Shown one piece after another: positions 9,360-26,793 of a stretch of DNA of 26,793 nt. Made by a program: the position numbers and the translations under genes. This stretch comes from an uncultured Lachnospiraceae bacterium (GTDB lineage Bacteria; Bacillota; Clostridia; Lachnospirales; Lachnospiraceae). The first letter of the stretch is position 1. Every line of letters begins with the position of its first letter. The stretch lies in the NCBI GenBank assembly GCA_949502025.1, contig CATBCG010000046.1:1-26793 (forward strand). The letters are read 5' to 3'. The notes under the pieces were generated by a model. That model was not told where the DNA came from. It was given only the letters and a program-made list of their open reading frames with translations, and made no database searches.

Positions 9360-9437
9360 AGAATCTGTACAGACGGAAAGCGAGAAGCAGCAAGCCGATT
9401 TGTCTGAATTGTTTTATAGCAAAGAAGGGAATCGTAT

Positions 9438-10850: not shown

Positions 10851-10927
10851 GGGAACCGGCTATTTTAACAGGATGCAAATGAGAGAGTGGAGAAAATAAC
10901 GGAGAATAGGATGGGAGGAATTTAGAA

Positions 10928-12097: not shown

Positions 12098-12134
12098 GAT
12101 ATCAAAAATAAAAAAATCACAAAATTAAAAAAGG

Positions 12135-12178
12135 AAGGGGCGACCTGGCAAACAGGCTGCCCCTTAAACTGTCTTTTT
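12135..12178. terminator. Bidirectional rho-independent terminator between the convergent telA (+) and amidase (-) genes
   Basis: Stem AAGGGGC..GCCCCTT with an inner CCTG/CAGG, flanked by A-runs on the 5' side and T-runs on the 3' side. Confidence 0.7.
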
Positions 12179-12185
12179 AAAAGGA

Positions 12186-12980
12186 TTATAACTGTATGAT
12201 GGCAGTATCAAATCCCAGACCCTGTAGGTTGTCAGCGTACTGTCTGGCTTCTGCTAACGTATCAAAGGTGCCGGAGAGTACAGCGTATAAGCCGCCCAAG
12301 GAGATAATCGTAGCAGGACGGTTATACTGCAACAGACGATCGTATTGAGCGGCTGCATTGTCGTATTGGGCAAACAGACCGACTTGCACACGATACGCTG
12401 GGGTTTCCCGTGAGGAGGTCTGCCCGGAGGTACGGACGGAACTACCGGGCGAATCCTCGATTGCTTCTAAAACACCATCTGCAATACCACGGGCAATTTC
12501 TTCAAAACGTTCATCAAATAGCTGATTGTCCTGGTCATTGTTGATAAAGCCTGCTTCTACCAAAATAGCAGGCATCCGGGTACGGCGAAGAACCGTCAGA
12601 TTGGGACGAAGATCGACGCCTAAATTAAGAAATCCAAGATCTTCCAGATTTTCGTTGATATTTTCTCCCATTTCCTCCTTGATCCCCCCGTTGTTGTATA
12701 TCAAGGACTGCACGCCGGAATATCGGTTAGGGGTGACATTGGAGTTGCGGTGAATAGAAAGAAAATAGTCTGCTCCGCTGTTATTGGCAATCCGCACCTT
12801 TTCACTAGGAGTCTGATAGATGTCGTCCGTGCGAGTATAAACAACATCCTGTCCGGCATTTTCTAACATTGCTCCAACTTCTAGCGCCAGCGCAAGGGCA
12901 TCGTCCTTTTCCATTCTGCCTCGGTAGACGGCGCCGCTGTCACGTCCTCCATGACCGGCATCTATTACGATTTTTGCCAT
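12186..12980 (-). CDS. N-acetylmuramoyl-L-alanine amidase (Amidase_3) with a C-terminal SPOR domain and no signal peptide, resembling CwlC
   Basis: N-terminal KIVIDAGHGGRDSGA...SIHRNS amidase_3 motifs and a C-terminal SPOR-like YRVQVGLF...GLYAVLSGTF. Confidence 0.88.
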   Translation of the reverse strand: MAKIVIDAGHGGRDSGAVYRGRMEKDDALALALEVGAMLENAGQDVVYTRTDDIYQTPSEKVRIANNSGADYFLSIHRNSNVTPNRYSGVQSLIYNNGGIKEEMGENINENLEDLGFLNLGVDLRPNLTVLRRTRMPAILVEAGFINNDQDNQLFDERFEEIARGIADGVLEAIEDSPGSSVRTSGQTSSRETPAYRVQVGLFAQYDNAAAQYDRLLQYNRPATIISLGGLYAVLSGTFDTLAEARQYADNLQGLGFDTAIIQL

Positions 12981-13043
12981 TCAAACACTACCTTATAATC
13001 ATAGTTGCTATAATATATGCAGACAAAGGGAGATTGGCGACAA

Positions 13044-13073
13044 CAGCCCGATGGGAAAGTACCCATCGGGCTG
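13044..13073 (-). terminator. Perfect 12-bp hairpin (CAGCCCGATGGG / CCCATCGGGCTG) between the flotillin stop codon and the amidase start codon
   Basis: Read from the sequence. The downstream U-tract is weak, so it may be a partial terminator or a stabiliser. Confidence 0.5.
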
Positions 13074-13092
13074 TATAAAGTTTAGATAACGT

Positions 13093-14502
13093 CTATTTTG
13101 GGTCGTTCTCTTCAAGAGTAGCCGCCGCCATAGCATCGGCTTCCTCTTCTTCTAAGTTTTTCCCAAGAAATTCCGGCAGCTCCATACCTGCTTGACGGAA
13201 CAAGTCGTTTAACGGCGGGATGGATTTCATCATACCAGAAAGGAAATTGGCAGTTGCCGGCGAGCCTTCCTTGCCGCCAAGGGAATCCCAGACGGTTACT
13301 TTGTCGATCTTGATATTCTTGATAGCGTCTACCTGAATCTGCATAAGATCCTGAAGCTTGTCGGCTACCATCAGCTTTACGGCGGCGTTTGGATCTCCGC
13401 CCGCAGCCTTTACCAGCTCGTGCATACCATCTGCCTGCTTTAAAAGCATTTCCTGGATACCACGCGCCTGCGCTTCCATTTTAGAGAAAATCGCATCAGC
13501 CTCACCTTTTGCCAGCCTTCTGGCTACTTCGGCTTCCGCTTCTGCCTGGATTTCCGCTTTTTCCTTTTCAATCTGTGCCTTGACGATGATATCTGCCTGC
13601 TGGGTAGCTCGTTCTAACTGCGCACGGGTTTCTTCTGCCTTTTGCTGTGCCGTATATGCCTCTTCCTGTGCTTTAGCCGCCTGTACCGCTTCTGCAGCAA
13701 CCGCAATACGCAACGCCTCAGCCTCTTTTTCACGACGGGAAGCGTCGGATTGTGCTACTTCGATTTTAGCTTCATTTTCACCCTGAATCGCAGTAGCGTC
13801 AGCCGCCGCTACCTGAATACGCTGGTCGCGTCGGGCATTTGCCTGACCGATTTCACCATCGCGATCCTTTTCTGCCACACTCTTTTTGGCGTCGTTAATC
13901 GCCTTAGCGGCTGCTTCTTTACCAAGCGCCTCTATGTAACCAGACTCGTCGTTGATATCGGTAACGTTGACGTTGATCAGCCGAAGACCGATTTTTTTCA
14001 GTTCGATTTCCACGTTGTTGGAAACGGAAATAAGGAATTTATCTCTATCTGCATTGATTTCTTCAATGTCCATAGTGGCGATAACAAGACGGAGCTGCCC
14101 TAAAATGATATCCTTTGCAAGCTCCTGAATCTCTCCTAGCTGGAGCCCTAACAGACGCTCTGCCGCATTCTGCATGACACCGGTCTCTGTAGAAATACCA
14201 ACGGTAAAACGAGATGGAACATCTACCCGGATATTCTGTTTGGAGAGGGCGTTACGTAAATCCACGTTAATGGAAATCGGAGTAAGATCCAGATACTGGT
14301 AGGATTGTATCACTGGAACAATAAAGGCAGCGCCGCCATGAATACATTTGGCAGAGCGGTTTTCTCCGTTTTTATCGGTTCCTACCTTACCATAAATGAC
14401 CAATACTTTATCGGACGGGCATTTGCGGTAACGAGAGAGAATGGCAATCAGACAGGCAAATAAAACCAGGACGGCGACACAAATAGCAATCAATATTTCC
14501 AT
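13093..14502 (-). CDS. floT: Flotillin-like SPFH/band-7 protein (FloT/YuaG-like) with a long EA-rich coiled coil
   Basis: N-terminal TM segment plus SPFH domain, followed by the characteristic alanine/glutamate-rich flotillin repeats. RBS AAAGGAGAA. Confidence 0.9.
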   Translation of the reverse strand: MEILIAICVAVLVLFACLIAILSRYRKCPSDKVLVIYGKVGTDKNGENRSAKCIHGGAAFIVPVIQSYQYLDLTPISINVDLRNALSKQNIRVDVPSRFTVGISTETGVMQNAAERLLGLQLGEIQELAKDIILGQLRLVIATMDIEEINADRDKFLISVSNNVEIELKKIGLRLINVNVTDINDESGYIEALGKEAAAKAINDAKKSVAEKDRDGEIGQANARRDQRIQVAAADATAIQGENEAKIEVAQSDASRREKEAEALRIAVAAEAVQAAKAQEEAYTAQQKAEETRAQLERATQQADIIVKAQIEKEKAEIQAEAEAEVARRLAKGEADAIFSKMEAQARGIQEMLLKQADGMHELVKAAGGDPNAAVKLMVADKLQDLMQIQVDAIKNIKIDKVTVWDSLGGKEGSPATANFLSGMMKSIPPLNDLFRQAGMELPEFLGKNLEEEEADAMAAATLEENDPK

Positions 14503-14598
14503 AATAGTTTTCTCCTTTTTTAGTAGGTTTGTCAGCAGCTTGAAAAAAGACTGGCTGCTGCAAAAAAGTAGTTATGTAGCGTCTGTAGAAATACACGA

Positions 14599-15240
14599 TT
14601 ACTGCTCCGGCTCCACCAATACGGCATCCCCGCGAACATCGATAATCCGGACACGGCTGCCGGTCGGCAGCGGAACAGAGGAATCCGTGATCGCATCGTA
14701 TTCGTTAAAATGACCGCCAATCGTGATGTTGACTTTTCCATGACCATTTCCCTTGGATGGAACGGTCAGATAAACCGTACCACTATAGCCGAGCGTGGAG
14801 ACGATGGATACGCTGCCGTCGTCTGCCAGCTTGGAAAGCGCGCGGATTAGGAGGGCAACCAGGAACATAAACAAAAAGCCCAACATAATCGCCAAAGCCA
14901 TAGACAGAAACGAGGAAGCAAGTACTCGTGTAAAAGCAAGACCGCTCCAGCCAAAGACACAGAAAAATGCAATAATGCCCTGGAAAGTAAAGAGCCGCAT
15001 TGTCCCAAAATCACCAGGCGCTGTACCATCCGGAGCAAAATCTGTGCTATCTGGTGAAAACGCTCCTCCGTCTGTATCCAGATCCAGACCGGATGTATCG
15101 CTTGGGTTAAAGCTGGAACCATCCTCGCCCCAGCCTAAAAACAACAGTACCATCTGTAAAATCAGAACAAGAGTAGACGGTACGGCGATACAGTAAAGAA
15201 TTTTTTGCAACAGGGAAAGGGATTCCCAAAATACCTGCAT
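14599..15240 (-). CDS. NfeD-like membrane protein (YuaF-like) with a C-terminal OB-fold and an acidic D/S/G-rich linker. The start is probably the internal ATG at 15240 (RBS GGAGGTG) rather than the ORF-track start at 15264.
   Basis: Multi-TM region followed by a VRIIDVRGDAVLVEP beta-barrel tail. It lies directly upstream of flotillin in the same orientation, as in yuaF-floT. Confidence 0.8.
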   Translation of the reverse strand: MQVFWESLSLLQKILYCIAVPSTLVLILQMVLLFLGWGEDGSSFNPSDTSGLDLDTDGGAFSPDSTDFAPDGTAPGDFGTMRLFTFQGIIAFFCVFGWSGLAFTRVLASSFLSMALAIMLGFLFMFLVALLIRALSKLADDGSVSIVSTLGYSGTVYLTVPSKGNGHGKVNITIGGHFNEYDAITDSSVPLPTGSRVRIIDVRGDAVLVEPEQ

Positions 15241-15438
15241 AATGCCACCTCCATTGTTTCGCATTTGTTTGATAGAAAACGTTATAAGGGGAAACTATAA
15301 CGGCTTCTATGATTAAGAATCAGGGAAATTTATCTGTGTAAATTCCGCTTACAATAAGTATACCATAATCTTCAAAAAAGTCAATAAAGCTAATGAGATC
15401 TTAATAAAAAATTTATTGGAAAATTTATAAAAAATGAC

Positions 15439-15467
15439 TTGATTATCTTTGCAAAATCTGGTATACT
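15439..15467 (+). promoter_or_regulatory. Consensus-like sigma-A promoter: TTGATT, 17 nt, TATACT
   Basis: Read from the sequence, about 75 nt upstream of the XRE-family regulator gene. It is divergent from the nfeD-floT operon. Confidence 0.6.
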
Positions 15468-15543
15468 CTCCCTGTAAATCGTATTTACACAAGGCGAAAT
15501 ATGCCTTTGTTACAGATCTACAGATGCGAAAGGAGCGGATAGC

Positions 15544-16107
15544 GTGGGAAGGGCAGAACTAGGAAGACGCCTAAAAGAAGCCAGACTCGCCAGAAGGATG
15601 ACACAGAGCGAGGTAGTGGGGGATTTTATTACCCGTAACATGTTAAGCCAGATTGAAAGTGGCAGCGCCATGCCATCTGTCAAGACGCTGGAATACTTAT
15701 CGAAGAGGCTGGAGATACCATTTGAACAGCTGATGGCAGATGAGGAGAGAGAAGAAACGACGCTGGAGCTGCTGCTTCGTGCAAAAGAGGATTTTAAAAA
15801 AGGGAGATATGAGGAGGTTATCAATCTTTTAGAGCAGGACAATGAAAAAATAACACCTATTTATGATGAGATAGGAGCGATACTGGCACGCTGTTATCTG
15901 CAGTTGGCATTACAGATGAGGGATAAGATGGACGGTAAATGGGCTGTGGAGCATCCAAAAGAGCTGCCAGTGCTGGAACATCGCCTGACCGCCTATGCAA
16001 AAGCAGCCGGACGATATGCCAGCGAAGGAATCTATGCCAGTAAGGAAATCCGAATGGAAGCTCTTGTACTCGAACATTTGAGAGAGGATACGGAACGTTA
16101 CTTATGA
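15544..16107 (+). CDS. XRE-family (Cro/C1-type) helix-turn-helix transcriptional regulator with a C-terminal domain of unknown function. GTG start.
   Basis: HTH signature LKEARLARRMTQSEV...SQIESG...PSVKTLEYLSKRL. RBS AGGAG. Confidence 0.85.
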   Translation: MGRAELGRRLKEARLARRMTQSEVVGDFITRNMLSQIESGSAMPSVKTLEYLSKRLEIPFEQLMADEEREETTLELLLRAKEDFKKGRYEEVINLLEQDNEKITPIYDEIGAILARCYLQLALQMRDKMDGKWAVEHPKELPVLEHRLTAYAKAAGRYASEGIYASKEIRMEALVLEHLREDTERYL

Positions 16108-16149
16108 GACATCTGGAGTTTGATGCTCGTCTTTGCGAACGAATATTTA

Positions 16150-16190
16150 AGGCAGGAAAGCTTTGAAGTGGCTTTCCTGCCTGTTTCATT
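16150..16190. terminator. Bidirectional rho-independent terminator (perfect 12-bp stem AGGCAGGAAAGC / GCTTTCCTGCCT) between the convergent XRE (+) and glycosyltransferase (-) genes
   Basis: Perfect stem read from the sequence, followed by GTTTCATTTT. Confidence 0.75.
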
Positions 16191-16206
16191 TTAAAACGCT
16201 ATCTTT

Positions 16207-16965
16207 TTATTTTTTACGAAAGATTTTCCGCTTAGCACGGATCATAGTAAAGTATCCTACAGCTATGATTCTGCCCAGACGCTGACCGAATATCCGGTTG
16301 ATCTTCTGAATACGTTTGGTTCGTTCTTTTTGTTCCGGGGTATGCCAGGAGGCATGATACCAATGTATGCTGTATGTATTTTGGGTTATTTTCAAACGGT
16401 TGTTCGTAAAACAAAGAGGGGCAAAATATTCAGCGGGAAATATATCGATCCCTTGTATGGACTGATATTTTCCATTGAGCTGCAAGCCATAAGATTTCAG
16501 TAATTCTGTAGTATAAAAGGGAGAAGGTACAATATTTGTCGTACCGTCTTCCTTATAAAAAGAAAGTGAATGGTACAAATCCCGCATCTGTTTTAAAATT
16601 TCATTTCCCGGCTCCGCGCCAAATCCTAAGCCCAGTGCTACGAACATCTGACTTTCAAAGCCCAGAAAAGCTTTACAGTTTAACAAGCTATCCAGGCTTT
16701 TTAACAATTCCACATCTGTGTCCAGATAGATCCCGCCTTCCCGGTAAATAATATCCAAACGGGCATAATCGGGGACGAAAGCCCACATTTTGGCTTCATA
16801 TGCCTGCGCCATATAAGTGCATACGGAAAAATCATAATTAGATTCATTCCATTCTATAATCTCATAATCCGGGCAGAATTTTTTCCAGCTTTCGGCGCAT
16901 GCTTTGTTTTTCTCCGGCATGGGTTTATCGCCAACCCAGAAATAATGTATTTTTTTTGGAATCAT
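16207..16965 (-). CDS. Glycosyltransferase with a DXD sugar-binding motif (GT32-like, Gly_transf_sug family). AT-rich relative to its neighbours.
   Basis: KIHYFWVGDKPMPE...YARLDIIYREGGIYLDTDVE, including the DXD motif. RBS GAGGGAGA. Confidence 0.85.
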   Translation of the reverse strand: MIPKKIHYFWVGDKPMPEKNKACAESWKKFCPDYEIIEWNESNYDFSVCTYMAQAYEAKMWAFVPDYARLDIIYREGGIYLDTDVELLKSLDSLLNCKAFLGFESQMFVALGLGFGAEPGNEILKQMRDLYHSLSFYKEDGTTNIVPSPFYTTELLKSYGLQLNGKYQSIQGIDIFPAEYFAPLCFTNNRLKITQNTYSIHWYHASWHTPEQKERTKRIQKINRIFGQRLGRIIAVGYFTMIRAKRKIFRKK

Positions 16966-16979
16966 ATAAGGGTCTCCCT

Positions 16980-17348
16980 CTAATATCGTATTATTTTTTT
17001 TATGATTTTGCTCAGAACCTGATAGTGGTTGGGAAAAGTAAAAAACAAAATCATTTTTCCAATGCTTTTGATATCTCGTGCGTTTCGCCGGATAAATTTT
17101 TTGTCCTGGATCGTCGTCCCTTCTTGTTCAGACAGTTGACATACCCCTATCATCTGCCGAGCCAGATAACTGGTCAGGATATTGTGCTGGTATCTAGTTA
17201 AGCCAAATCTCCGGTAATAATCCTCTAATTGAAAAAGTATTTTCTTTTTTTGAAAACGACCGAAGGGAATAGACAGGCAGCAAAACTTTTCTGCGTCGCT
17301 ATTCTCTCTGGTACATAAGCCGTCCAAAGGCTTTCTAAAAAATAGCAT
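16980..17348 (-). CDS. Hypothetical 122-aa protein. Its stop codon lies 14 nt upstream of the glycosyltransferase start, and it is AT-rich.
   Basis: Only an ORF whose position suggests coupling to the downstream gene. There is no recognisable domain and no clear RBS. Confidence 0.3.
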   Translation of the reverse strand: MLFFRKPLDGLCTRENSDAEKFCCLSIPFGRFQKKKILFQLEDYYRRFGLTRYQHNILTSYLARQMIGVCQLSEQEGTTIQDKKFIRRNARDIKSIGKMILFFTFPNHYQVLSKIIKKIIRY

Positions 17349-17726
17349 GAAAAAACCGACTCTTTTTAGGAATCCTTCGTTTTAATATAGCGTTTTTTCC
17401 CGTTCTTGTCAACGGGGTGCTGCATGAGATGTCAAAAATCTGCATGAGATGCAGATCAGCAAAAGAGGAAGCCCCCAGGATGCACATTCAGCTCTATCCT
17501 TGCATATGAATTAGCTGACTTTGCTGTCATAGAATAACACTCCTACGGCGTCGTATTCCGTTTTCATTTATTCTTTTTCCATGCGGTGTGCTGGTATTTG
17601 GGCTTGCAGGGGTTCAGGCGGCATATTAAGGTCTTTTTGAGATAATCAACCATTTTCAATAACAACACAGATTAAAATCAGAAATAAAATCGGAAAAATA
17701 TAGAAAATAGCAGAAAGAAAAGACAG

Positions 17727-17770
17727 CGGATGCAACACTTTTTATAAAATGTTGCATCCGCTGTTCTATG
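17727..17770. repeat. Long palindrome CAGCGGATGCAACA-CTTTTTATAAAA-TGTTGCATCCGCTG in the ORF-free region upstream of csrA. It is copy 1 of a paired motif.
   Basis: A 14-bp perfect stem plus an AT-palindromic loop, read from the sequence. Confidence 0.6.
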
Positions 17771-18023
17771 TTATATATCGGCTGCTGTTTTTATTTCTTT
17801 AGAGTCATTTTATACTTTTTTGAAATTTTTATCTTAAAGTGCGTGAAGCCGCATTTATTCAGGTTTTTTCTATCTTATGTATCCCTATAAAAAAGTTTGT
17901 GATGAAGAAGGAGAAGCGAAACAGGATATCAGAATGAAACTAAGTGAATCGTACAAAAATCTATTTTTTCACTAAGAATTTAAGAAGCAGGACTTTAAAA
18001 AATCCTTATTTTATGCGCTTTTG

Positions 18024-18062
18024 CGGATGAATGCAACATTTTATAAAAAGTGTTGCATGACA
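18024..18062. repeat. Second copy of the TGCAACA-TTTTATAAAA-TGTTGCA palindrome (GGATGAATGCAACATTTTATAAAAAGTGTTGCATGA), about 40 nt upstream of the csrA RBS
   Basis: It shares the GGATG..TGCAACA..TTTTATAAAA..TGTTGCAT core with the 17727-17770 copy. Confidence 0.55.
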
Positions 18063-18089
18063 ACTTTTGTAAAAGGAAGGAGGCTTTTC

Positions 18090-18380
18090 ATGCTGAACCT
18101 TACGGTAAAGCCGGGAGAATACTTTGTCATTGGAGAGGATATCCGGGTGATTTTTGCAGGCGGTACGGCTAACAACGCCAGAGTCATGATCGATGCGCCG
18201 AGAAGCTACAACATTGTTCGCGGAAAGGTACTAGAGCAGTCGGAAGAGGGAAGCTACTATGTAGAGCCAGAGATTCCAAAGGAACGGCTAAAAAGCTTTC
18301 AACGGCAGCAGAAGAGACAGAGACAGCAAGCAGAACAAAAACGTCGGGAACAAAAACAGCAGGAAATATCGGCTGTATAG
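18090..18380 (+). CDS. csrA: CsrA-like carbon storage regulator (divergent) with an unusual basic and Q-rich C-terminal tail. The true start is probably ATG 18090 (RBS AGGAGG) rather than the ORF-track start at 18021.
   Basis: Alignable to CsrA: VIGEDIRV ~ IGDDIEI; MIDAPRSYNIVRGKVLE ~ GINAPKEVPVHRREVYE. It lies immediately upstream of flagellin. Confidence 0.65.
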   Translation: MLNLTVKPGEYFVIGEDIRVIFAGGTANNARVMIDAPRSYNIVRGKVLEQSEEGSYYVEPEIPKERLKSFQRQQKRQRQQAEQKRREQKQQEISAV

Positions 18381-18607
18381 CGTTTGCAAAGTAAGAGCAA
18401 TACGAAGTTGTAATAGTAGTTGGTAATATGCAGTACAATATCCGCCTGTCAATATCTGTACGGAGATATTAGGAAAGCCGCTTACAAAGCAGGAGTTTCC
18501 AGACCGGAGGGCATATCGGTACGGGGTATGCAGGGATGAGGTAGTGCTTATTATAAAGAAGCGTGTCCTGGACTCCTTATAAAAGGAAGAAAGGGCAAAG
18601 ACAAGAA

Positions 18608-18656
18608 AGCAGGAACGGATTCCTGAACAATTTAAACACATGGAGGTAAGATTATG
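18608..18656 (+). promoter_or_regulatory. Predicted CsrA-binding sites in the flagellin leader: the hairpin CAGGAA-CGGA-TTCCTG presents GGA in its loop, and a second GGA overlaps the Shine-Dalgarno (CATGGAGG)
   Basis: Sequence pattern only, by analogy with the B. subtilis hag leader, which has two CsrA sites, one of them overlapping the SD. Confidence 0.4.
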
Positions 18657-19562
18657 ATTATTCAACACAACATGCCAGCGGCAAACACAAACAGACAGTT
18701 AGGGATTACGAATGGTAATCTGCAAAAATCTACAGAAAAGCTTTCTTCCGGGTATCGGATTAACCGTGCGGGCGATGACGCAGCAGGACTTTCCATTTCC
18801 GAAAAAATGCGTGGGCAGATTCGTGGTTTGAATCAGGCTTCTACTAATGCGCAGGATGGTATTTCCATGATTCAGACGGCAGAAGGTGCTATGAACGAAC
18901 TCCATTCTGTGGTACAGAGAATGAGAGAACTGACGGTTCAGGCTGCAAATGATACAAACGTAGCAGAAGATAGAATGGCAATTCAATCGGAAATTAAGCA
19001 GTTGTCAGAGGAAATTGATCGTATTGCACAAAGCACAGAATTTAACACGATGAAGCTATTAAATGGAGATTATAGCGAGGATGGAGAACGTGGAAAGCTG
19101 ACTCTTCAGGTTGGCGCTAATAACAGTAGTACAGATGTATTAGACGATGGAGATCAAGTAATTAAATTTAGCTTGAATGCTATGACTACTGATGTAATTG
19201 GCGGGGAAACCGGAACAGTATCTGCATTATTTATGCTTACAATTGACGATGCAACAGGTTTTGAAGACGCTGACATAGCAGCTTCTATAGCAGCAGATTT
19301 GGACATTTTAGATGAAGCATTAAAGTATGTTTCTGATGAACGTTCTAAATTGGGTGCTATTCAGAATCGTTTGGAACATACCATTGCTAATACAGATAAT
19401 ACCGCTGAAAATCTGCAGGCAGCAGAATCCCGTATCCGTGACGTAGATATGGCAGAGCAGATGGTAGATTACAGCAAGGACACTATCCTTCAGCAGGCAG
19501 CGCAGTCTATGCTGGCTCAGGCAAATCAGCAGACACAGGGTGTTCTGGCGCTTCTTCAGTAA
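18654..19562 (+). CDS. fliC: Flagellin, a short form of 302 aa that lacks a large variable domain
   Basis: N-terminal IQHNMPAANTNRQL...KLSSGYRINRAGDDAAGLSISEKMRGQIRGLNQAS, and C-terminal ...ILQQAAQSMLAQANQQTQGVLALLQ. Confidence 0.95.
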   Translation: MIIQHNMPAANTNRQLGITNGNLQKSTEKLSSGYRINRAGDDAAGLSISEKMRGQIRGLNQASTNAQDGISMIQTAEGAMNELHSVVQRMRELTVQAANDTNVAEDRMAIQSEIKQLSEEIDRIAQSTEFNTMKLLNGDYSEDGERGKLTLQVGANNSSTDVLDDGDQVIKFSLNAMTTDVIGGETGTVSALFMLTIDDATGFEDADIAASIAADLDILDEALKYVSDERSKLGAIQNRLEHTIANTDNTAENLQAAESRIRDVDMAEQMVDYSKDTILQQAAQSMLAQANQQTQGVLALLQ

Positions 19563-19617
19563 GCAATTTGTCTGAAAAGGGACAGGGTTATTCTAAGACA
19601 CAACACATACAAAAAAT

Positions 19618-19653
19618 GGGGAGCTTCCGGAAAGGAGGCTCCTTATTTGATTT
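19618..19653 (+). terminator. Rho-independent terminator after flagellin (GGAGCTTCC-ggaaa-GGAGGCTCC followed by TTATTTGATTT)
   Basis: A 9-bp stem including one G-U pair, followed by a U-rich tail. Confidence 0.8.
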
Positions 19654-19870
19654 GACAGAACTTGTCGGTTGCCAGGTTATCTATTTCTGTAGATGGTAAG
19701 GCTTGCCTGTTTCGATTGGTTCCAAATCATTCACTCTTGATAGTAGCCATAACAAAAAATAAAAATCCAATTATGTAGTTTTCTGCCTCTTCTTGGAACA
19801 GTGTCACAGCAGGAATCAAAAGAATGATGAAGGACGGGCGTATAAATTTGTAAAAAATGGTGTAAAATTC

Positions 19871-19899
19871 TTGACAGAAGAAGGAATAAGTGCTACACT
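19871..19899 (+). promoter_or_regulatory. Sigma-A promoter for the str operon: TTGACA, 17 nt, TGc-TACACT
   Basis: Read from the sequence, about 70 nt upstream of rpsL. Confidence 0.65.
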
Positions 19900-19967
19900 G
19901 ATATGGCATGTCAAAAACGATGTGTTTTTGCTGCAAAAGGAAAATGAATGACAGGAGGTGAAAATTA

Positions 19968-20387
19968 ATGCCAACTTTTAATCAGCTAGTGAGAAAGGGC
20001 AGACAAACGGTAGAAAAGAAGTCAACGGCACCTGCGTTGCAGAAGGGCTTTAACTCTCTGCATAAGCGTGCGACTGACATTTCCTCTCCACAGAAGAGAG
20101 GCGTTTGTACCGCGGTAAGAACTGCTACTCCGAAGAAGCCGAACTCCGCTTTAAGAAAGATTGCCAGAGTACGTCTTTCCAATGGTATCGAAGTGACGAG
20201 CTATATTCCGGGTGAAGGTCACAACCTTCAGGAGCATAGCGTTGTCCTGATCCGTGGCGGCAGAGTAAAGGACCTTCCAGGTACCAGATATCATATCGTT
20301 AGAGGTACTCTTGATACCGCAGGCGTTGCCAAGAGAAGGCAGGCCCGTTCTAAGTACGGCGCAAAGAGACCGAAGGACGCAAAATAA
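19968..20387 (+). CDS. rpsL: 30S ribosomal protein S12
   Basis: Unmistakable S12 sequence, including the [10 protein letters not shown] and [10 protein letters not shown] regions. Confidence 0.98.
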
Positions 20388-20520
20388 AAAATAAGCGAAT
20401 GTAACGATATGGAGAGTATTCTAAGATTAAAAGTGCCGGATTAATTTTTACCTGTTAAAAATAGACGTGTAGAGTTAAACGGAACACGAACACAGCTTTG
20501 TATGGTTGTGAGTACCTTAG

Positions 20521-21030
<510 letters not shown>

Positions 21031-21160
21031 TAGGAAAAGACAGCAAAACTCCGGACAGGAGGCAGCTGGAATGACGGACGCATCTTTTTAGCGGTCGGAA
21101 TTTAAGCTTTAAGAAGTCTCATGGGAGGAATTTTGCGGAACTAAAATAGGAGGAGTAACC

Positions 21161-23278
21161 TTGGCTGGAAGAGAATATCCGTTAGAGAGAACCAGGAACA
21201 TCGGTATCATGGCGCATATCGATGCAGGTAAGACCACTCTGACCGAGCGTATCTTATACTACACTGGTGTAAATTATAAAATCGGTGATACTCACGAAGG
21301 TACTGCTACCATGGACTGGATGGAACAGGAGCAGGAAAGAGGTATTACCATTACTTCTGCGGCTACGACCTGCCACTGGACTCCACAGGATCACTGCAAA
21401 GAAAAGGAAGGCGCAGAGGAGTACCGGATCAATATCATTGACACTCCTGGGCATGTGGACTTTACTGTAGAAGTAGAGCGTTCCCTGCGTGTTTTGGATG
21501 GTGCAGTGGGCGTATTCTGTGCGAAGGGCGGCGTTGAGCCTCAGTCTGAAAATGTATGGCGTCAAGCTGACACCTACAATGTACCAAGAATGGCATTTAT
21601 CAATAAGATGGATATACTGGGCGCTAATTTTTATGGCGCTGTAGATCAGATTAGAACCAGACTTGGAAAAAATGCAATCTGTCTCCAATTGCCGATCGGC
21701 AAGGAAGACGAATTTAAAGGAATCATTGATCTGTTTGAGATGGAAGCCTACATTTACAACGATGAAAAGGGCGAGGACATCTCTATCGTGCCGATTCCGG
21801 ACGATATGAAGGATCAGGCGGACGAGTATCATACCGAGTTGGTAGAGAAAATCTGCGAGTTAGACGATGATTTGATGTTAAAGTATTTAGAGGGTGAAGA
21901 ACCGACTGTAGAGGAGTTAAAAGCTGCTCTGCGGAAGGGAACCTGTGAATGTGCTGCTATCCCGGTATGTTGTGGTACGGCTTATCGGAATAAAGGAGTA
22001 CAGAAGCTCTTAGATGCAGTTATTGATTTTATGCCGGCTCCAATCGACATTCCGGCTATCCAGGGTGTAGATGAGGACGGAAACGAAGTAGTAAGACATT
22101 CTTCTGACGAAGAGCCGTTTTCTGCGTTGGCATTTAAGATTATGGCAGATCCGTTTGTAGGAAAGCTGGCGTTCTTCCGTGTGTATTCCGGTACAATAAA
22201 CTCCGGTTCTTATGTATTGAATGCGACGAAGAATAAAAAAGAGCGTGTCGGACGTATTTTGCAGATGCATGCGAATAAGCGTGCCGAGCTGGATAAAGTA
22301 TATTCCGGTGATATCGCTGCGGCTGTCGGATTTAAGCTGACAACTACCGGTGATACCATCTGTGACGAACAGCATCCGGTTATTTTGGAGTCTATGGAGT
22401 TCCCGGAGCCGGTTATCGAGCTGGCTATCGAGCCAAAGACCAAAGCTGGGCAAGGAAAGATGGGCGAAGCGCTGGCAAAGCTGGCAGAAGAAGATCCGAC
22501 TTTCCGCGCACACACCAATCAGGAAACCGGACAGACTATCATCGCAGGTATGGGCGAGCTGCATTTGGAGATTATTGTAGACCGTCTGCTGCGTGAATTT
22601 AAGGTAGAAGCCAATGTCGGCGCTCCTCAGGTTGCATATAAGGAGACCTTTACAAAGGCAGTCGATATTGACAGCAAGTATGCAAGACAGTCCGGTGGAC
22701 GTGGACAGTATGGGCATTGTAAGGTTAAATTTGAGCCAATGGATCCGAATGGAGAGGAAATATTCAAATTCGAGTCTACCGTTGTCGGCGGTGCGATTCC
22801 AAAGGAATATATCCCAGCAGTCGGAGAAGGTATCGAAGAAGCTACCAAAGCTGGTATCCTTGGAGGATTCCCGGTACTTGGTGTTCGTGCAAACGTATAC
22901 GATGGGTCTTACCATGAGGTAGACTCTAGTGAAATGGCGTTTCACATTGCAGGCTCTATGGCATTTAAAGAAGCCATGAAAAAAGGTAATCCGGTTCTGT
23001 TAGAGCCGATTATGAAGGTAGAAGTGACCATGCCGGAAGAATATATGGGCGACGTTATCGGCGATATCAACTCCCGTCGTGGTCGTATCGAAGGTATGGA
23101 CGATATCGGCGGTGGCAAGATAGTACGTGGTTATGTACCGCTTGCTGAGATGTTCGGTTATTCTACCGACCTGCGTAGTAAGACACAGGGACGTGGAAAC
23201 TACTCGATGTTCTTTGAGAAGTACGAGCAGGTTCCAAAATCTGTACAGGAAAAGGTGCTTGCTGCAAAAGCAAAGTAA
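21161..23278 (+). CDS. fusA: Elongation factor G (TTG start)
   Basis: G-domain motifs AHIDAGKTT and DTPGHVDF, and NKMD. 705 aa. RBS AGGAGG. Confidence 0.98.
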
Positions 23279-23326
23279 ATTTGCTTAGGCAAAGTAAATT
23301 CACTTATGCAAAGTAAATTTGCGTAG
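23270..23326. repeat. Three tandem copies of a 19-bp unit spanning the fusA stop codon. Each unit contains AAGTAA.
   Basis: The three units, read directly from the sequence, are CAAAGTAAATTTGCTTAGG, CAAAGTAAATTCACTTATG and CAAAGTAAATTTGCGTAGG. Confidence 0.8.
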
Positions 23327-23365
23327 GTAAAATAATACAAAATCGTTGGAATTGTTAAATTCTGC

Positions 23366-23394
23366 TTGAAAATATTTCATAGATGAAATATAAT
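23366..23394 (+). promoter_or_regulatory. Sigma-A promoter internal to the str operon, for tuf: TTGAAA, 17 nt, TATAAT
   Basis: Consensus hexamers with exact 17-bp spacing. The spacer contains the 6-bp inverted repeat TTTCAT/ATGAAA. Confidence 0.65.
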
Positions 23395-23477
23395 GAGAGC
23401 ATGTCAGGTGTTTTTCGTCAGGAAAGATACCAAAATAGAACAGAACATGATCCAAATTTAAAGGAGGAACATTAAAA

Positions 23478-24665
23478 ATGGCAAAAGCTAAGTTCGAAAG
23501 AACAAAACCACATTGTAATATTGGTACCATCGGCCACGTTGACCATGGTAAAACTACTCTGACCGCTGCTATTACCAAGACTTTAAATACCAGACTTGGT
23601 ACTGGCGAGGCTGTAGCCTTCGATATGATCGACAAGGCTCCGGAGGAGAGAGAAAGAGGTATCACCATTTCTACTGCTCACGTAGAGTACGAGACTGAAA
23701 AGAGACACTATGCACACGTTGACTGCCCAGGACATGCTGACTACGTTAAGAACATGATCACTGGTGCTGCTCAGATGGACGGCGCTATTCTGGTAGTAGC
23801 TGCTACTGACGGTGTTATGGCTCAGACCAAGGAGCATATCCTTCTGTCTCGTCAGGTAGGTGTTCCTTATATCGTTGTATTCATGAACAAGTGCGATATG
23901 GTAGACGATCCAGAGCTGTTAGAGCTGGTTGAGATGGAGATCACCGAGCAGCTTGAGGAGTATGAGTTCACAGATTGCCCAATCATTCAGGGTTCTGCAT
24001 TAAAGGCTCTGGAAGATCCGAACAGCGAGTGGGGCGACAAGATTATTGAGTTGATGCACACAGTTGACGATTATATTCCAGATCCACAGAGAGCTACCGA
24101 TCAGCCGTTCCTGATGCCAGTTGAGGACGTATTCTCCATTACTGGACGTGGTACTGTTGCTACAGGTCGTGTAGAGCGTGGTGTTCTGCATGTCAATGAT
24201 GAAGTAGAAATCGTTGGTGTGAAGGAAGATACTCGTAAGGTTGTTGTAACCGGCGTAGAGATGTTCCGTAAGCTTCTTGACGAGGCTCAGGCTGGTGATA
24301 ATATCGGTGCGCTGCTTCGTGGTGTTCAGAGAACAGAAATCGAAAGAGGACAGGTTCTTTGTAAGCCAGGCAGCATTACCTGCCACAAGAAATTTACCGC
24401 TCAGGTATACGTTCTGACCAAGGACGAGGGTGGTCGTCATACTCCGTTCTTCAACAACTACCGTCCACAGTTCTACTTCAGAACAACCGATGTTACAGGT
24501 GTGATCAACCTGCCGGAAAACACAGAAATGTGTATGCCTGGTGATAACGTAGAAATGACCATCGAACTGATTCATCCAATCGCTATGGAGCAGGGTCTTG
24601 GCTTTGCTATCCGCGAGGGTGGTAGAACAGTTGGTTCTGGTAAGGTTGCAAAGATTATTGAGTAA
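23478..24665 (+). CDS. tuf: Elongation factor Tu
   Basis: [22 protein letters not shown], 395 aa. Confidence 0.98.
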
Positions 24666-24704
24666 TCTTTGACTAGCAAGTAATTAGTAAAAAGCTGGAT
24701 TTTA

Positions 24705-24745
24705 TGGGGCTTTCCGAGGAATCGGGAAGCCCTTTTTGAAATTTT
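24705..24745 (+). terminator. Rho-independent terminator of the str operon (GGGCTTTCC..GGGAAGCCC followed by TTTTT)
   Basis: Stem-loop plus a U-tract immediately after tuf. Confidence 0.8.
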
Positions 24746-24990
24746 GTATTCGTACAGGGATATTGATAAAAGGAAAAAGTTATGCTATCATAAAATCAGT
24801 TAAAAAAATCTAATATCTTTCTGGAAATATATGCTTATCTATATAGTCATAAGTAGAAATGAAAGAAATTATCAAGAGACAGATTTTCAAATAGAAAAGA
24901 AAAAGAGTTTATATCATTTTATAGGGAAGATATAATGTTGGCATAGAAATAGAATATTGATTTGATGAATGATAGAAAAGAAGGTAAACG

Positions 24991-26187
24991 ATGTTAGATT
25001 ATATTATTGAACGTACAAATGGATATATTGATAGTATGCCCAAAAAAGAGCGAAAAAAGTATGGTCAATTTTTTACAAGTAAAGAAACCGCACGTTTTAT
25101 GACAGAATTATATAAAATTCCTGATAACAAGCCTACAATCAGTATTCTAGATGCAGGTGCGGGATCGGGAATATTATCGTGTGCATTTATAGAACGATTA
25201 GAGCAGATGTCTTCTGTTCAAACAATAAAATTGACTTGCTATGAGAATGATGACAATATTTTGGAATTACTAAAAGAAAACCTGCACATTTGTCAGGAAA
25301 ATTCTAAAAAGGATATTCAAATTTATGTTATTACAGATAATTATATTACAAGCCAGTATTTGGATTTCAATCATATGTTAGGTGGTAATCTTGAACCTGA
25401 GAAATTTGATTTTGTAATTGGTAATCCTCCTTATATGAAAATAGCAAAAGATGCACCAGAAGCAACGGCTATGCCAAGGGTTTGCTATGGTGCGCCAAAT
25501 TTGTATTTTATTTTTGCAGCAATGGGTTTGTTTAATCTTGATGTTGATGGAGAAATGGTGTATATTATTCCGCGTTCATGGACTTCCGGGGCTTATTTTA
25601 AGCGATTTAGACAGTATTTTCTGACAGAAGGGAAATTAGAACACATTCATTTGTTTGTAAGCAGAAATAAAGTGTTTGACAAAGAAGATGTTTTACAAGA
25701 AACGATTATCATTAAAGTAAAAAAAACAAACCAAATACCAGAAAAAATAACAATTTCTTCTTCGCAGTCAAATTATGATTTTGATAATCGTACTTCCTTA
25801 ACGGTACCCTATAGCCTTGTTGTGTCAGGAAGTGATTATTATGTGTATTTAGTAACAGATGAAAAAGAAGTTTCAGTTTTAGAACGATTACATAAATTTG
25901 ATAAAACATTACCAGATATTGGGTTAAAAATGAAAACAGGATTGACGGTTGATTTTCGTAATCGTGAGATACTTCGTGATGATGCAGAGGAGGGAGCGAT
26001 TCCGCTTTTCTATTCGCAGCATATCAAACAGGGAGAAGTACAGTTCCCTATTCAGAAGGAGCATGAATATGTTGTGACTGACCAAAAGGGATTAATGCAG
26101 GAAAATAGGAATTATTTGTTTGTCAAGCGTTTTACTGCAAAAGAAGAAAGACGCAGATTGCAGTGCGGGGTGTATTTGTCTGTATAA
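24991..26187 (+). CDS. Gamma-class N6-adenine DNA methyltransferase (Eco57I/TaqI-like). It is solitary and markedly AT-rich.
   Basis: Motif order FFT (GQFFTSKETARFM), then AdoMet motif I (ILDAGAGSGIL), then motif IV (IGNPPY), with a long C-terminal target-recognition region. No restriction endonuclease ORF is adjacent. Confidence 0.85.
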   Translation: MLDYIIERTNGYIDSMPKKERKKYGQFFTSKETARFMTELYKIPDNKPTISILDAGAGSGILSCAFIERLEQMSSVQTIKLTCYENDDNILELLKENLHICQENSKKDIQIYVITDNYITSQYLDFNHMLGGNLEPEKFDFVIGNPPYMKIAKDAPEATAMPRVCYGAPNLYFIFAAMGLFNLDVDGEMVYIIPRSWTSGAYFKRFRQYFLTEGKLEHIHLFVSRNKVFDKEDVLQETIIIKVKKTNQIPEKITISSSQSNYDFDNRTSLTVPYSLVVSGSDYYVYLVTDEKEVSVLERLHKFDKTLPDIGLKMKTGLTVDFRNREILRDDAEEGAIPLFYSQHIKQGEVQFPIQKEHEYVVTDQKGLMQENRNYLFVKRFTAKEERRRLQCGVYLSV

Positions 26188-26229
26188 TTCCATTAGAGAA
26201 CATATAAAGAGATACCATATATAAAGAAT

Positions 26230-26256
26230 GAGTGAGAAGCTTTTGACCTCTCACTC
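26230..26256 (-). terminator. Hairpin GAGTGAGA..TCTCACTC downstream of the minus-strand sigma-like gene. On the minus strand it is followed by an A/T-rich run.
   Basis: An 8-bp perfect stem read from the sequence. Confidence 0.4.
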
Positions 26257-26285
26257 AACATTTCACAGAAAAGCAGACTACATCA

Positions 26286-26711
26286 TTATAAAATCTTACG
26301 CAACCTCTTACGTAAATGAGCCACCCTCGCATATACAGCCCCTGCCTTCAAATGCACGAGCAGGGCAATTTCTTTTGTGGAGTAACCCTGCATTTTCAGC
26401 AAGACGATTTGTAATGTACGTCTGTCCACTGTGACTAAGGCAAGGTACAGAGTTTTGCTTTCAATCTCATCCAGTAAATCCGTTACCGTCCTTATCTCTG
26501 CCTGTTTCTCCCTGCCCACCATTTCCTCAAGGTACTCCCCGAAGTCGCTCGTCCATCGGTAAAACCTCCTGTTGGAATTAAAATCTGCCCTGTCGTCTGT
26601 GCGGATTTGCTCAATGACCGCTTCATCAACGCCGCACTCACGCAGAACCCTTTCCTCGGCTTCTTTCCAGATGCGCCATTTCCTGTCCTCCCGTCCGTGG
26701 TTATATGCCAT
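26286..26711 (-). CDS. Sigma-70 region-4 (HTH) family protein of the type carried by Firmicute conjugative transposons/ICEs (Tn916 Orf7-like)
   Basis: C-terminal LLKMQGYSTKEIALLVHLKAGAVYARVAHLRKRLRK matches the sigma-70 region 4 / LuxR-like HTH. It has a GGAGG RBS and its GC content is higher than the adjacent methyltransferase. Confidence 0.55.
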   Translation of the reverse strand: MAYNHGREDRKWRIWKEAEERVLRECGVDEAVIEQIRTDDRADFNSNRRFYRWTSDFGEYLEEMVGREKQAEIRTVTDLLDEIESKTLYLALVTVDRRTLQIVLLKMQGYSTKEIALLVHLKAGAVYARVAHLRKRLRKIL

Positions 26712-26793
26712 GTTTCTTTTCCTCCAATCGAAATTGATTGAGAGGGCAGGAAAAGCCCCCTCATTTTCCCAAAGGAAAAAACAAGGGGGCTGA

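What the first reader, a model, noticed from the sequence alone, without database searches (positions are those of the whole stretch)
24746..26285. Abrupt AT-rich island with an orphan gamma-class adenine methyltransferase immediately after the tuf terminator
Composition switches sharply at about 24745, and the AT-rich stretch continues through about 26290. It contains a single M.TaqI/Eco57I-like N6-adenine methyltransferase with its own promoter-like TATAAT and RBS. No restriction endonuclease partner is present, and the next gene converges on it. An orphan methyltransferase at a conserved-operon boundary beside a conjugative-element-type gene suggests the edge of an integrated mobile element. 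The methyltransferase could act as anti-restriction or epigenetic cargo, or it could be a remnant of an RM or BREX-like system whose other components were lost.
Basis: partly seen in the sequence, partly recalled or inferred. Interest (0 to 1): 0.6.

Follow-up and report, generated by a model that had tools for sequence, protein, structure and literature searches.

The report
Restriction-system methylase gene split by transposon
The "orphan" methyltransferase is the first 80% of the methylase gene of an ordinary PstI/BsuBI-type restriction-modification operon, cut off by a small mobile element, so it is a routine case of one mobile element landing in another.

Summary
The AT-rich stretch is real: 24747-26180 has GC 0.32, against 0.46 for the rest of the window. 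It holds an Eco57I/N6_Mtase-family ORF (24991-26187).

The ORF is 398 aa, while nearly all homologues are 495 aa. A 99.9%-identical contig from the same species carries the intact gene after tuf. Similarity to it ends at a TC dinucleotide (26179-26180).

In 77 of 79 other species, the intact methylase gene is followed by a BsuBI/PstI/SdaI-family endonuclease gene, which often overlaps it by 8 bp. The gene is therefore the 5' part of a type II R-M operon, not an orphan.

The inserted DNA (26181 to the window end) is the terminal 613 bp of a mobile element. A complete relative is 11.1 kb. That relative has TC at both ends, about 24-bp terminal inverted repeats, a large serine recombinase next to TnpV, and at least four different insertion sites. 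This is Tn4451-like behaviour.

An element about 10% diverged sits at the same dinucleotide in an 85%-identical allele elsewhere, so this site is hit repeatedly.

In other species, the R-M genes lie in defence islands bracketed by repeats of the tuf 3' end.

All parts are known kinds, so interest is low to moderate.

The parts
23478..24665 (+). tuf (EF-Tu), the last core gene before the island
   Evidence: 395-aa ORF. GTP_EFTU domains are called on the identical gene in L001.
24679..24746 (+). 68-bp tuf terminator segment (hairpin 24706-24733 plus U-run). Copies of it bracket R-M-containing islands in other species, so it behaves like an att site and marks the left border of the island.
   Evidence: Fold dG -26.8, z -4.7. 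Copies at 87-96% identity, always in the same orientation as the methylase gene, occur in pairs in L040, L050 and L038.
24747..24990 (+). AT-rich leader of the R-M operon (GC 0.25) with promoter-like sites at 24763-24791 and 24908-24936
   Evidence: The stretch 24813-25010 is 68-77% identical to the region upstream of the methylase gene in eight other species.
24991..26187 (+). Truncated methylase ORF. Codons 1-397 (24991-26181) come from the M gene of a PstI/BsuBI/SdaI-type R-M system. Codon 398 (GTA) and the stop codon (TAA, 26185-26187) come from the inserted element.
   Evidence: Pfam Eco57I/N6_Mtase. Homologues are 495 aa. 100% identical to residues 1-397 of P0001. Window 14991-26177 matches L001 at 99.94%.
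26179..26180 (.). TC (GA on the other strand): the junction dinucleotide, shared by the target and the element end, and the inferred 2-bp crossover
   Evidence: TC is present at attL (window, L002), at attR (L102, L104), at the empty site (L001), and at both ends of the complete element in L106.
26181..26793 (-). Left terminal 613 bp of the inserted mobile element, which runs off the window. The terminal inverted repeat starts at 26181 (TGTATAATTCCATTAGAGAACATA).
   Evidence: 100% identical to element ends joined to two other flanks (L090, L092). 91.6% identical to the end of the complete 11,150-bp element in L106.
26229..26257 (-). Terminator-like hairpin after the element's last gene
   Evidence: 12-bp stem followed by a T-run.
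26286..26711 (-). Terminal gene of the element: a 141-aa sigma-70 region-4 / HTH protein
   Evidence: Pfam Sigma70_r4_2, 1e-5. The identical protein lies next to a second sigma-like gene in 17 contigs.

Best explanation
Three layers of acquired DNA are nested here.

(1) The DNA just after the tuf terminator is an acquired, AT-rich defence island. This is inferred from composition and from relatives.

(2) The first operon of that island is a type II restriction-modification system of the PstI/BsuBI/SdaI family. It has a gamma-class N6-adenine methylase gene (495 aa when intact) followed by a 305-aa endonuclease gene. This is shown in relatives. The recognition site probably contains CTGCAG (inferred).

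(3) A small integrative element has inserted into codon 397 of the methylase gene at a TC dinucleotide. A complete relative is 11.1 kb and encodes a large serine recombinase next to TnpV. The insertion is shown. Catalysis by the serine recombinase through a 2-bp staggered crossover, as in Tn4451/Tn5397, is inferred.

The insertion leaves a 398-aa methylase fragment. It keeps the AdoMet-binding and NPPY motifs but lacks the conserved last 98 residues. It also separates the endonuclease gene from its promoter by the length of the element. The R-M system is therefore most likely inactive in this strain (inferred). Serine recombination is conservative, so excision would restore the gene exactly.
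For: Truncation:
- Nearly all of the 120 best homologues are 495 aa, while the window ORF is 398 aa.
- P0001 (495 aa) is identical over residues 1-397 and sits in the same csrA-fliC-rpsL-rpsG-fusA-tuf context.
- The window and that contig are 99.94% identical for 11.2 kb, then diverge completely after the TC at 26179-26180.
- The same junction is assembled independently in three metagenomes.

R-M partner:
- In 77 of 79 assessable species loci, a BsuBI_PstI_RE gene follows the intact methylase gene (Pfam 2e-58 and 6e-42). In many loci it overlaps the methylase stop by 8 bp.
- The endonuclease matches SdaI (PDB 2IXS) end to end, E 5e-55.
- Both proteins, in the same M-then-R order, match the Stx2a-phage cassette (31.5% and 40.9% identity). 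That cassette was shown to methylate CTGCAG (PMC3893438).

Element:
- The 613-bp end is 100% identical in copies joined to two other flanks.
- The far junction was found as fusion ORFs P0121 and P0122 (FYVLKRNYTS fused to KKYPQY...). It is followed by the 3' methylase fragment and the endonuclease gene.
- The complete relative in L106 is 11,150 bp, TC to TC, with about 21 of 24 terminal inverted-repeat positions matching. Its genes are two sigma-like genes, cargo, TnpV, a 555-aa recombinase (Resolvase + Recombinase + Zn_ribbon_recom + DUF4368), AAA_25 and PIN_8.
- Published behaviour of Tn4451 and Tn5397 matches: a 2-bp GA crossover, many sites, and some preferred sites (PMC5704250; PMC4430133).

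Island:
- The methylase gene has GC of about 0.35 whatever the flanks are (0.30-0.56).
- Repeats of the tuf 3' end bracket R-M-containing defence islands in three species.
Against: - The window ends 613 bp into the element. Its size, its recombinase, the far junction and the state of the endonuclease gene in this genome are inferred from relatives.
- In same-species contigs, a group II intron reverse-transcriptase gene lies near the sigma genes (L095), so the cargo differs from L106.
- Loss of methylase activity is not demonstrated. The AlphaFold model was unreliable for residues 279-462 and no Pfam domain covers the lost part.
- CTGCAG is not depleted in the window: 7 sites against 5.2 expected. 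This gives no sign of long-term restriction pressure.
- The predicted circular joint was not found in metagenome contigs.
- Three synonymous differences from the empty-site allele lie within 11 bp left of the TC (26169, 26172, 26178). A clean 2-bp serine crossover does not explain them.
Confidence: 0.85

Rival explanations
1. It is a true orphan (solitary) adenine methyltransferase. It would be carried as anti-restriction or epigenetic cargo of the mobile element whose edge lies at the tuf boundary.
For: No endonuclease gene is in the window. The ORF is open, with a promoter-like site and an RBS. In 12 of 77 species the endonuclease gene next to an intact methylase gene is broken, and in 2 of 79 it is absent, so this methylase can outlive its partner.
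Against: The ORF lacks 98 conserved C-terminal residues that nearly all homologues have. The same species has the intact 495-aa allele. The element's end is found 100% identical without any methylase gene beside it, so the methylase is not its cargo.
Confidence: 0.04
2. The junction is an assembly chimera joining a chromosomal contig to a repeated mobile element.
For: Assemblies often break in or near this element (L090, L092, L102 and L001 all end close to it).
Against: The identical junction occurs in three independent metagenome assemblies (L091, L095, L096). The equivalent junction, with a diverged element and a diverged allele, occurs in eight more contigs (L002-L009). The reciprocal right-hand junction exists at the same codon.
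Confidence: 0.02
3. The insertion works as a reversible switch rather than a dead end. Excision by the serine recombinase would rebuild the M-R operon precisely, so the element toggles the host's restriction barrier. This would resemble the phage in Listeria comK, or the streptococcal ICEs in hsdM.
For: The crossover is a conserved 2-bp TC, so excision would be exact. The 5' fragment shows no further decay in two lineages. The reviewed literature raises the same idea for hsdM-inserting ICEs (PMC4701971).
Against: In the one lineage where the far side could be read, the endonuclease gene already carries an internal stop (L102 and L103). That argues for decay, not switching. No circular joint was found. 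The element uses at least three other unrelated sites, so the methylase gene is not a dedicated site.
Confidence: 0.1
4. The inserted DNA in this genome is a large conjugative element (tens of kb), not an ~11-kb mobilisable-transposon-like element.
For: Only 613 bp are in the window. The module of two sigma-like genes, cargo and TnpV also occurs at 80% identity inside a VirB4-encoding conjugative element of Monoglobus and on Enterococcus and Streptococcus plasmids.
Against: The Monoglobus module does not share the terminal ~100 bp (the match starts at query position 108). The only complete copy with the same termini is 11.1 kb and has no conjugation genes.
Confidence: 0.15

Closest known systems
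PstI / BsuBI / SdaI family type II restriction-modification systems (for example the M.EcoGIII cassette of Stx2a prophages)
   Same: It has a gamma-class N6-adenine methylase of about 500 aa, followed in the same direction by a ~305-aa endonuclease with the BsuBI_PstI_RE_N and BsuBI_PstI_RE domains. Both proteins align end to end with the characterised CTGCAG cassette and with SdaI (PMC3893438).
   Different: Identity to the characterised enzymes is only 31% (M) and 41% (R), so a 6-bp CTGCAG or an 8-bp CCTGCAGG-type site cannot be told apart. In this window the M gene is truncated and the R gene is not present.
Tn4451/Tn4453 (TnpX) and Tn5397 (TndX): clostridial elements moved by a large serine recombinase
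   Same: GA (TC) dinucleotide at both ends and in the target, short imperfect terminal inverted repeats, a large serine recombinase with the DUF4368 tail next to a TnpV gene, and several unrelated insertion sites together with a repeatedly used one (PMC5704250; PMC4430133).
   Different: The complete relative has no MobV relaxase (TnpZ) and no resistance gene. It carries two sigma-70-like genes, a two-component system, an AAA_25 protein and a PIN_8 protein. Identity of its recombinase to TnpX or TndX was not measured. Excision was not shown.
Streptococcal ICEs with serine integrases that insert into hsdM, rumA, mutT or the traG gene of another ICE
   Same: Serine-recombinase elements that disrupt a non-essential protein gene, including the methylase subunit of an R-M system and genes of other mobile elements, leaving 2-8 bp repeats (PMC4701971). 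Here the targets are a type II M gene, a serine recombinase gene of another element, and a TrbL-like gene.
   Different: The target here is a type II rather than a type I methylase. The element is small and has a single recombinase, with no conjugation module in the complete copy.

Membership tests
PstI/BsuBI/SdaI-type type II R-M system | Gamma-class N6-adenine methylase: AdoMet motif before the NPPY motif, with an Eco57I/N6_Mtase match | tested here: met
   LDAGAGSG at residues 53-60 and NPPY at 145-148. Pfam PF07669 1e-18 and PF02384 5e-10.
PstI/BsuBI/SdaI-type type II R-M system | Adjacent cognate endonuclease with BsuBI_PstI_RE domains | tested here: inconclusive
   Absent from the window. 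Present directly after the intact gene in 77 of 79 species loci and after the 3' fragment at the far junction in L102 and L103. The far side of this genome is outside the window.
PstI/BsuBI/SdaI-type type II R-M system | Homology of both proteins to an experimentally characterised member | tested here: met
   M is 31.5% identical over residues 18-490 and R is 40.9% identical over 4-304, both to the Stx2a-phage cassette and in the same order (activity reported in PMC3893438). R against SdaI (2IXS): E 5e-55.
PstI/BsuBI/SdaI-type type II R-M system | Full-length, functional methylase that methylates CTGCAG | tested here: not met
   Length is 398 aa instead of 495 aa. Activity and motif cannot be tested with these tools.
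Orphan (solitary) DNA methyltransferase | A complete gene that is conserved without an endonuclease partner in related genomes | tested here: not met
   The gene is truncated, and its intact alleles have a partner in 77 of 79 species.
BREX (PglX) or type IIG remnant | Match to PglX models, or a fused nuclease/long architecture, with neighbouring BREX genes | tested here: not met
   The PglX models score 22.1 and 20.3 bits against cut-offs of 500 and 900. The neighbours are tuf and the inserted element, and relatives have a separate PstI-type endonuclease gene.
Tn4451/Tn5397-like serine-recombinase element | GA/TC dinucleotide at both ends and in the target | tested here: met
   Window attL, L001 attB, L102/L104 attR, and both ends in L106.
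Tn4451/Tn5397-like serine-recombinase element | Large serine recombinase (Resolvase + Recombinase + Zn ribbon + DUF4368) encoded in the element | tested here: inconclusive
   Present in the complete relative L106, next to TnpV. It is not within the window, and the copy in this genome was not seen. Identity to TnpX or TndX was not measured; the best plasmid matches are 43%.
Tn4451/Tn5397-like serine-recombinase element | Multiple insertion sites | tested here: met
   The identical or near-identical end is joined to the methylase gene, to a serine recombinase gene, to an unrelated ORF and to a TrbL_2 gene.
Tn4451/Tn5397-like serine-recombinase element | MobV relaxase (TnpZ) with oriT, or a Tn916-type conjugation module | tested here: not met
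   None of the called genes of the complete 11.1-kb copy carries a Mob_Pre or conjugation domain.
Tn4451/Tn5397-like serine-recombinase element | Circular excised form with a joined-ends junction | tested here: inconclusive
   The exact predicted joint ATTACACATCTGTATAATTCCATTAG gave no hit in metagenome contigs. That collection may not hold the relevant samples.
Genomic island integrated at the 3' end of a housekeeping gene (tuf) | Direct repeats of the target gene's 3' end bracketing the island | tested here: inconclusive
   Met in L040, L050 and L038: repeats of 170-200 bp, 78-89% identical, spaced 5.6-10.3 kb apart. Only the left copy (24679-24746) can be seen in the window.
Genomic island integrated at the 3' end of a housekeeping gene (tuf) | Integrase associated with the island | tested here: not met
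   No integrase lies inside the bracketed islands. In L022 a tyrosine-integrase mobilisable element starts just beyond the downstream repeat.

The most novel reading that the evidence does not exclude
The element's repeated use of one TC in the methylase gene may be more than a chance landing. Insertion would switch off the host's PstI-type restriction barrier, which would benefit incoming DNA, including the element's conjugative helpers. Exact excision would switch it back on. That would make the element a reversible, horizontally spread on/off switch for a defence system. It sits in a so far undescribed defence-island hotspot at the tuf 3' end in gut Lachnospiraceae.
Probability: 0.1. Interest if true: 0.6.

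Novelty: new member of a known kind. Interest (0 to 1): 0.3.

Why it matters
This corrects an annotation trap. A methylase ORF with no partner, next to a mobile element, looks like an orphan epigenetic or anti-restriction gene. Here it is a broken half of a standard R-M operon, so no m6A motif should be expected from it. It also adds a type II methylase gene to the list of protein genes that serine-recombinase elements hit repeatedly. It suggests that a small element can knock out, and on excision restore, a restriction barrier in mouse- and rabbit-gut Lachnospiraceae. The repeats of the tuf 3' end around variable defence genes point to a possible integration hotspot that could help locate defence islands in this family.

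Tried and rejected
- AlphaFold2 model of the full-length methylase from 35 close homologues: mean pLDDT 57.9, with residues 279-462 below 50. It could not show what the lost 98 residues do, so no fold search was run.
- Pfam on the C-terminal 266 residues at E up to 10: no match.
- PDB sequence search with the methylase: no match.
- Rfam on 24600-26400: only a sub-threshold RAGATH-32 hit over the terminator (20.3 bits against 41.8).
- CTGCAG avoidance in the window: none, 7 sites against 5.2 expected. The test is weak on 27 kb.
- Exact search for the predicted circular joint in metagenome contigs, and for either element end in viral contigs: no hits.
- C-terminal fragments P0140 and P0168, looked up as possible far junctions: they are frameshifted, decayed copies of the R-M system with no element.
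- Literature search for integration at the 3' end of tuf: nothing relevant.
- tblastn of the element's recombinase against plasmids: only 'recombinase family protein' matches at 43% identity or less, so closeness to TnpX could not be measured.
- BREX or type IIG remnant: rejected on model scores and on the partner gene in relatives.
Full report
**Observation**

The composition shift is real and sharp. In 300-bp windows, GC is 0.47-0.49 across tuf and 0.25-0.36 from about 24650 to 26300. The stretch 24747-26180 has GC 0.319. No window of the same size in 1-24678 goes below 0.372, and their mean is 0.462.

The shift starts right after a strong tuf terminator: hairpin 24706-24733 plus a U-run, dG -26.8 kcal/mol, z -4.7.

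One long ORF, 24991-26187 (+), 398 aa, matches Pfam Eco57I (1e-18) and N6_Mtase (5e-10). It has the AdoMet motif (LDAGAGSG) ahead of NPPY, which is the gamma-class order. Promoter-like hexamers lie upstream, for example TTTATA-17-TATAAT at 24908-24936.

The next gene, 26286-26711 (-), is a 141-aa sigma-70 region-4 protein that converges on it.

**The gene is truncated**

Nearly all of the 120 best homologues are 495 aa.
- P0001 (495 aa) is identical to the window protein over residues 1-397 and then continues for 98 more residues.
- Its contig (L001, GCA_949502185.1) has the same csrA, flagellin, rpsL, rpsG, fusA, tuf, methylase order.
- That contig is 99.94% identical to window 14991-26177.
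- From 26181 onward the two sequences are unrelated.
- The junction reads ...GTGTATTTG-TC-TGTATAATTCCATTAGAG in the window and ...GTATATTTA-TC-AAAGAATTATCC in the intact allele.
- The inserted DNA supplies one codon (GTA) and a stop codon (TAA).
- The same junction, base for base, is present in three independent metagenome assemblies (L091, L095, L096). It is therefore not an assembly artefact.

**The gene is not an orphan**

A scan of one genome per species returned 80 loci with the intact 495-aa gene (79-91% identity), mostly in Lachnospiraceae.
- In 77 of the 79 loci with room downstream, a 305-aa ORF follows the gene. It often overlaps the methylase stop by 8 bp.
- This ORF carries both BsuBI/PstI endonuclease domains (PF06616 2e-58, PF17728 6e-42).
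- It matches the SdaI endonuclease structure 2IXS over its whole length (E 5e-55).
- About 63 of these endonuclease genes look intact, 12 have stops, frameshifts or deletions, and 2 run off the contig.
- Both proteins, in the same M-then-R order, also match the cassette in Stx2a-converting phages (31.5% and 40.9% identity).
- A published study links that cassette to adenine methylation of CTGCAG, and reports its near-identical relatives M.EcoGIII and its endonuclease as biochemically shown to act on CTGCAG (PMC3893438).

The window ORF is thus the 5' 80% of the M gene of a PstI/BsuBI/SdaI-family type II system. At these identities, the recognition site cannot be resolved between CTGCAG and an 8-bp relative.

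**What interrupted it**

The 613 bp from 26181 to the window end is 100% identical to sequences in ten other contigs. Right after the shared ...TATACAGA end (the reverse strand of TCTGTATA), these contigs continue into three different flanks:
- the methylase gene;
- a large serine recombinase gene that lacks its N-terminal Resolvase domain (L090, L093, L094);
- an unrelated ORF (L092).

The reciprocal junction was found through C-terminal methylase fragments. P0121 and P0122 begin with foreign residues (..FYVLKRNYTS) fused exactly at K398. Their contigs read PIN_8 gene...AAATTACACA-TC-GAAGAAATATCC, methylase 3' fragment, endonuclease gene.

A homologue of that PIN_8 protein led to contigs holding a complete element (L106-L108).
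- It is 11,150 bp from TC to TC.
- About 21 of its 24 terminal inverted-repeat positions match.
- Its left 615 bp is 91.6% identical to the window's.
- Its genes are two sigma-70-like genes, a two-component system, TnpV, a 555-aa large serine recombinase (Resolvase, Recombinase, Zn_ribbon_recom, DUF4368), an AAA_25 protein and the PIN_8 protein.
- In L106 it sits in a TrbL-like gene.
- In L109 and L110 its right end abuts a 105-aa Resolvase N-terminal fragment, which is the other half of the L090-type target.

**Mechanism**

The observed features are a TC/GA dinucleotide at both ends and in every target, short inverted repeats, a DUF4368-type serine recombinase beside TnpV, and several unrelated sites plus one recurrent site.

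These match what reviews describe for two elements. Tn4451 recombines between 2-bp identical sequences and is listed as using 'numerous sites (GA)' (PMC5704250). Tn5397 always has a central GA and shows strongly preferred sites in some hosts (PMC4430133).

I infer that the element entered by a conservative 2-bp crossover catalysed by its own recombinase. This step is inferred and not shown. The recombinase of the copy in this genome lies outside the window, and the predicted circular joint was not found.

Unlike Tn4451, the complete copy has no MobV relaxase. The module of two sigma-like genes, cargo and TnpV also occurs at 80% identity around tet(O) and tet(40) on Enterococcus, Streptococcus and Campylobacter plasmids, and inside a Monoglobus conjugative element. 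Those copies do not share the same termini.

**Is the methylase site a hotspot?**

A second lineage (P0120, seen on 33 contigs) has an 85%-identical methylase gene in a different chromosomal context, after an ABC transporter. It is cut at the same dinucleotide, giving the same ..GVYLSV* end. The element there is only about 89-92% identical.

The window's lineage has a 99.94%-identical empty-site relative, and its element end is identical to copies elsewhere. Its insertion is therefore recent and separate from the P0120 event.

Of the 80 species alleles, 48 have TC at codon 397 (Ser) and 32 have GC (Ala). The latter lack the crossover dinucleotide.

Streptococcal ICEs with serine integrases are known to insert into hsdM, rumA, mutT and the traG gene of other ICEs (PMC4701971). 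Insertion into a methylase gene or into another element's gene is therefore a known pattern.

**Consequences (inferred)**

- The 398-aa product keeps the catalytic motifs but loses the last 98 residues, which are densely conserved across 35 homologues.
- The endonuclease gene is separated from the operon promoter.
- The system is probably inactive.
- In the one lineage where the far side could be read, the endonuclease gene has an internal stop (L102 and L103).
- I could not support the loss of function structurally. The model was poor beyond residue 278, and no Pfam or PDB match covers that part.
- CTGCAG is not depleted in the window.

**The island at tuf**

The methylase gene has GC of about 0.35 in all species, whatever the flanks are (0.30-0.56). 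This fits horizontal spread.
- tuf lies within 10 kb upstream of the gene in 12 other species, and directly upstream in 5.
- The 68-bp terminator segment (24679-24746) recurs at 87-96% identity, always in the same orientation as the methylase gene.
- In L040, L050 and L038, a second copy lies 5.6-10.3 kb downstream. It is preceded by the last 56-66 nt of a tuf coding sequence (..GSGRVATIIE*).
- Between the copies lie the R-M genes plus variable defence genes: GmrSD with HEPN, a ResIII helicase, and SIR2 with HerA. TIR/SEFIR and SIR2-STALD genes occur in L022 and L035.
- No integrase lies inside these islands. In L022 a tyrosine-integrase mobilisable element starts just after the downstream copy.

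This looks like integration at the tuf 3' end, and it places the island's left edge at about 24747, exactly where the composition changes. The right edge in this genome is outside the window, so this layer is supported only by relatives.

**Unexplained**

The window differs from the empty-site allele at three synonymous positions (26169, 26172, 26178) within 11 bp left of the TC. There are no differences in the preceding 2.3 kb. The variant bases occur in other species' alleles. A clean 2-bp crossover does not predict this. One possibility is that the element inserted into a pre-existing variant allele. Another is that the element was imported with a little flanking DNA by homologous recombination. 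I could not separate the two.

**Verdict**

The 'orphan cargo methylase' reading is not supported. The 'edge of a mobile element' and 'R-M remnant' parts are correct in outline. Every component belongs to a known kind, so this is a new member of known kinds with modest interest. Two small leads remain: a recurrent insertion site in a type II methylase gene, and a possible tuf-linked defence-island hotspot.

Noticed in passing
window 24679-24746; L040 8678-8813 and 14319-14455; L050 4251-4411 and 14598-14747; L038 6538-6781 and 15908-16025: The tuf terminator, together with the last ~60 nt of the tuf coding sequence, occurs as 170-200-bp direct repeats (78-89% identical). They bracket 5.6-10.3-kb islands that hold the R-M genes plus variable defence genes (GmrSD/HEPN, ResIII helicase, SIR2-HerA). 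This may be a tuf-3' integration hotspot in Lachnospiraceae. No integrase lies inside the islands.
   Followed up: partly
window 26169, 26172, 26178: Three synonymous differences from the otherwise 99.94%-identical empty-site allele are clustered in the 11 bp left of the TC junction. There are none in the preceding 2.3 kb. A simple 2-bp serine-recombinase crossover does not explain this.
   Followed up: partly
L090 1834-3526; L109 9546-9863; L106 102-689 and 11853-12089: The same element also sits inside genes of other mobile elements. One is a large serine recombinase gene of a ParB/Mob_Pre/AAA_25 mobilisable element, whose two halves were found on separate contigs. Another is a TrbL-like gene.
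   Followed up: partly
L010-L089, codon 397 of the methylase gene: 48 of 80 species alleles have TC (Ser) at the insertion dinucleotide and 32 have GC (Ala). The Ala alleles are almost all in the clade below 84% identity. They lack the crossover dinucleotide and may not be usable as targets.
   Followed up: partly
L021, L023, L026, L029, L040, L044, L064, L072, L073, L075, L078, L084; L049, L063; L100, L101: The endonuclease gene is broken in 12 species and absent in 2 while the methylase gene stays intact. Two widespread contig families carry wholly frameshifted copies of the system. The R-M system decays often, and the endonuclease goes first.
   Followed up: partly
L095 200-874: In a same-species contig with the same junction, a group II intron reverse-transcriptase fragment (RVT_1, GIIM) lies next to the element's second sigma-like gene. 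The copy in this species therefore differs in cargo from the complete 11.1-kb relative.
   Followed up: no
window 8351-19562: About 11.7 kb of unrelated genes sits between rpoC and rpsL: 2-hydroxyacid dehydrogenase, TelA, an amidase with a SPOR domain, a Band 7 protein, an HTH protein, a glycosyltransferase, CsrA and flagellin.
   Followed up: no
L010-L089, about 15 bp upstream of the insertion point; window 26157-26162: Most alleles of the methylase gene contain CTGCAG, the likely recognition site of their own system, just upstream of the insertion point. The window allele and L001 have TTGCAG there instead.
   Followed up: no
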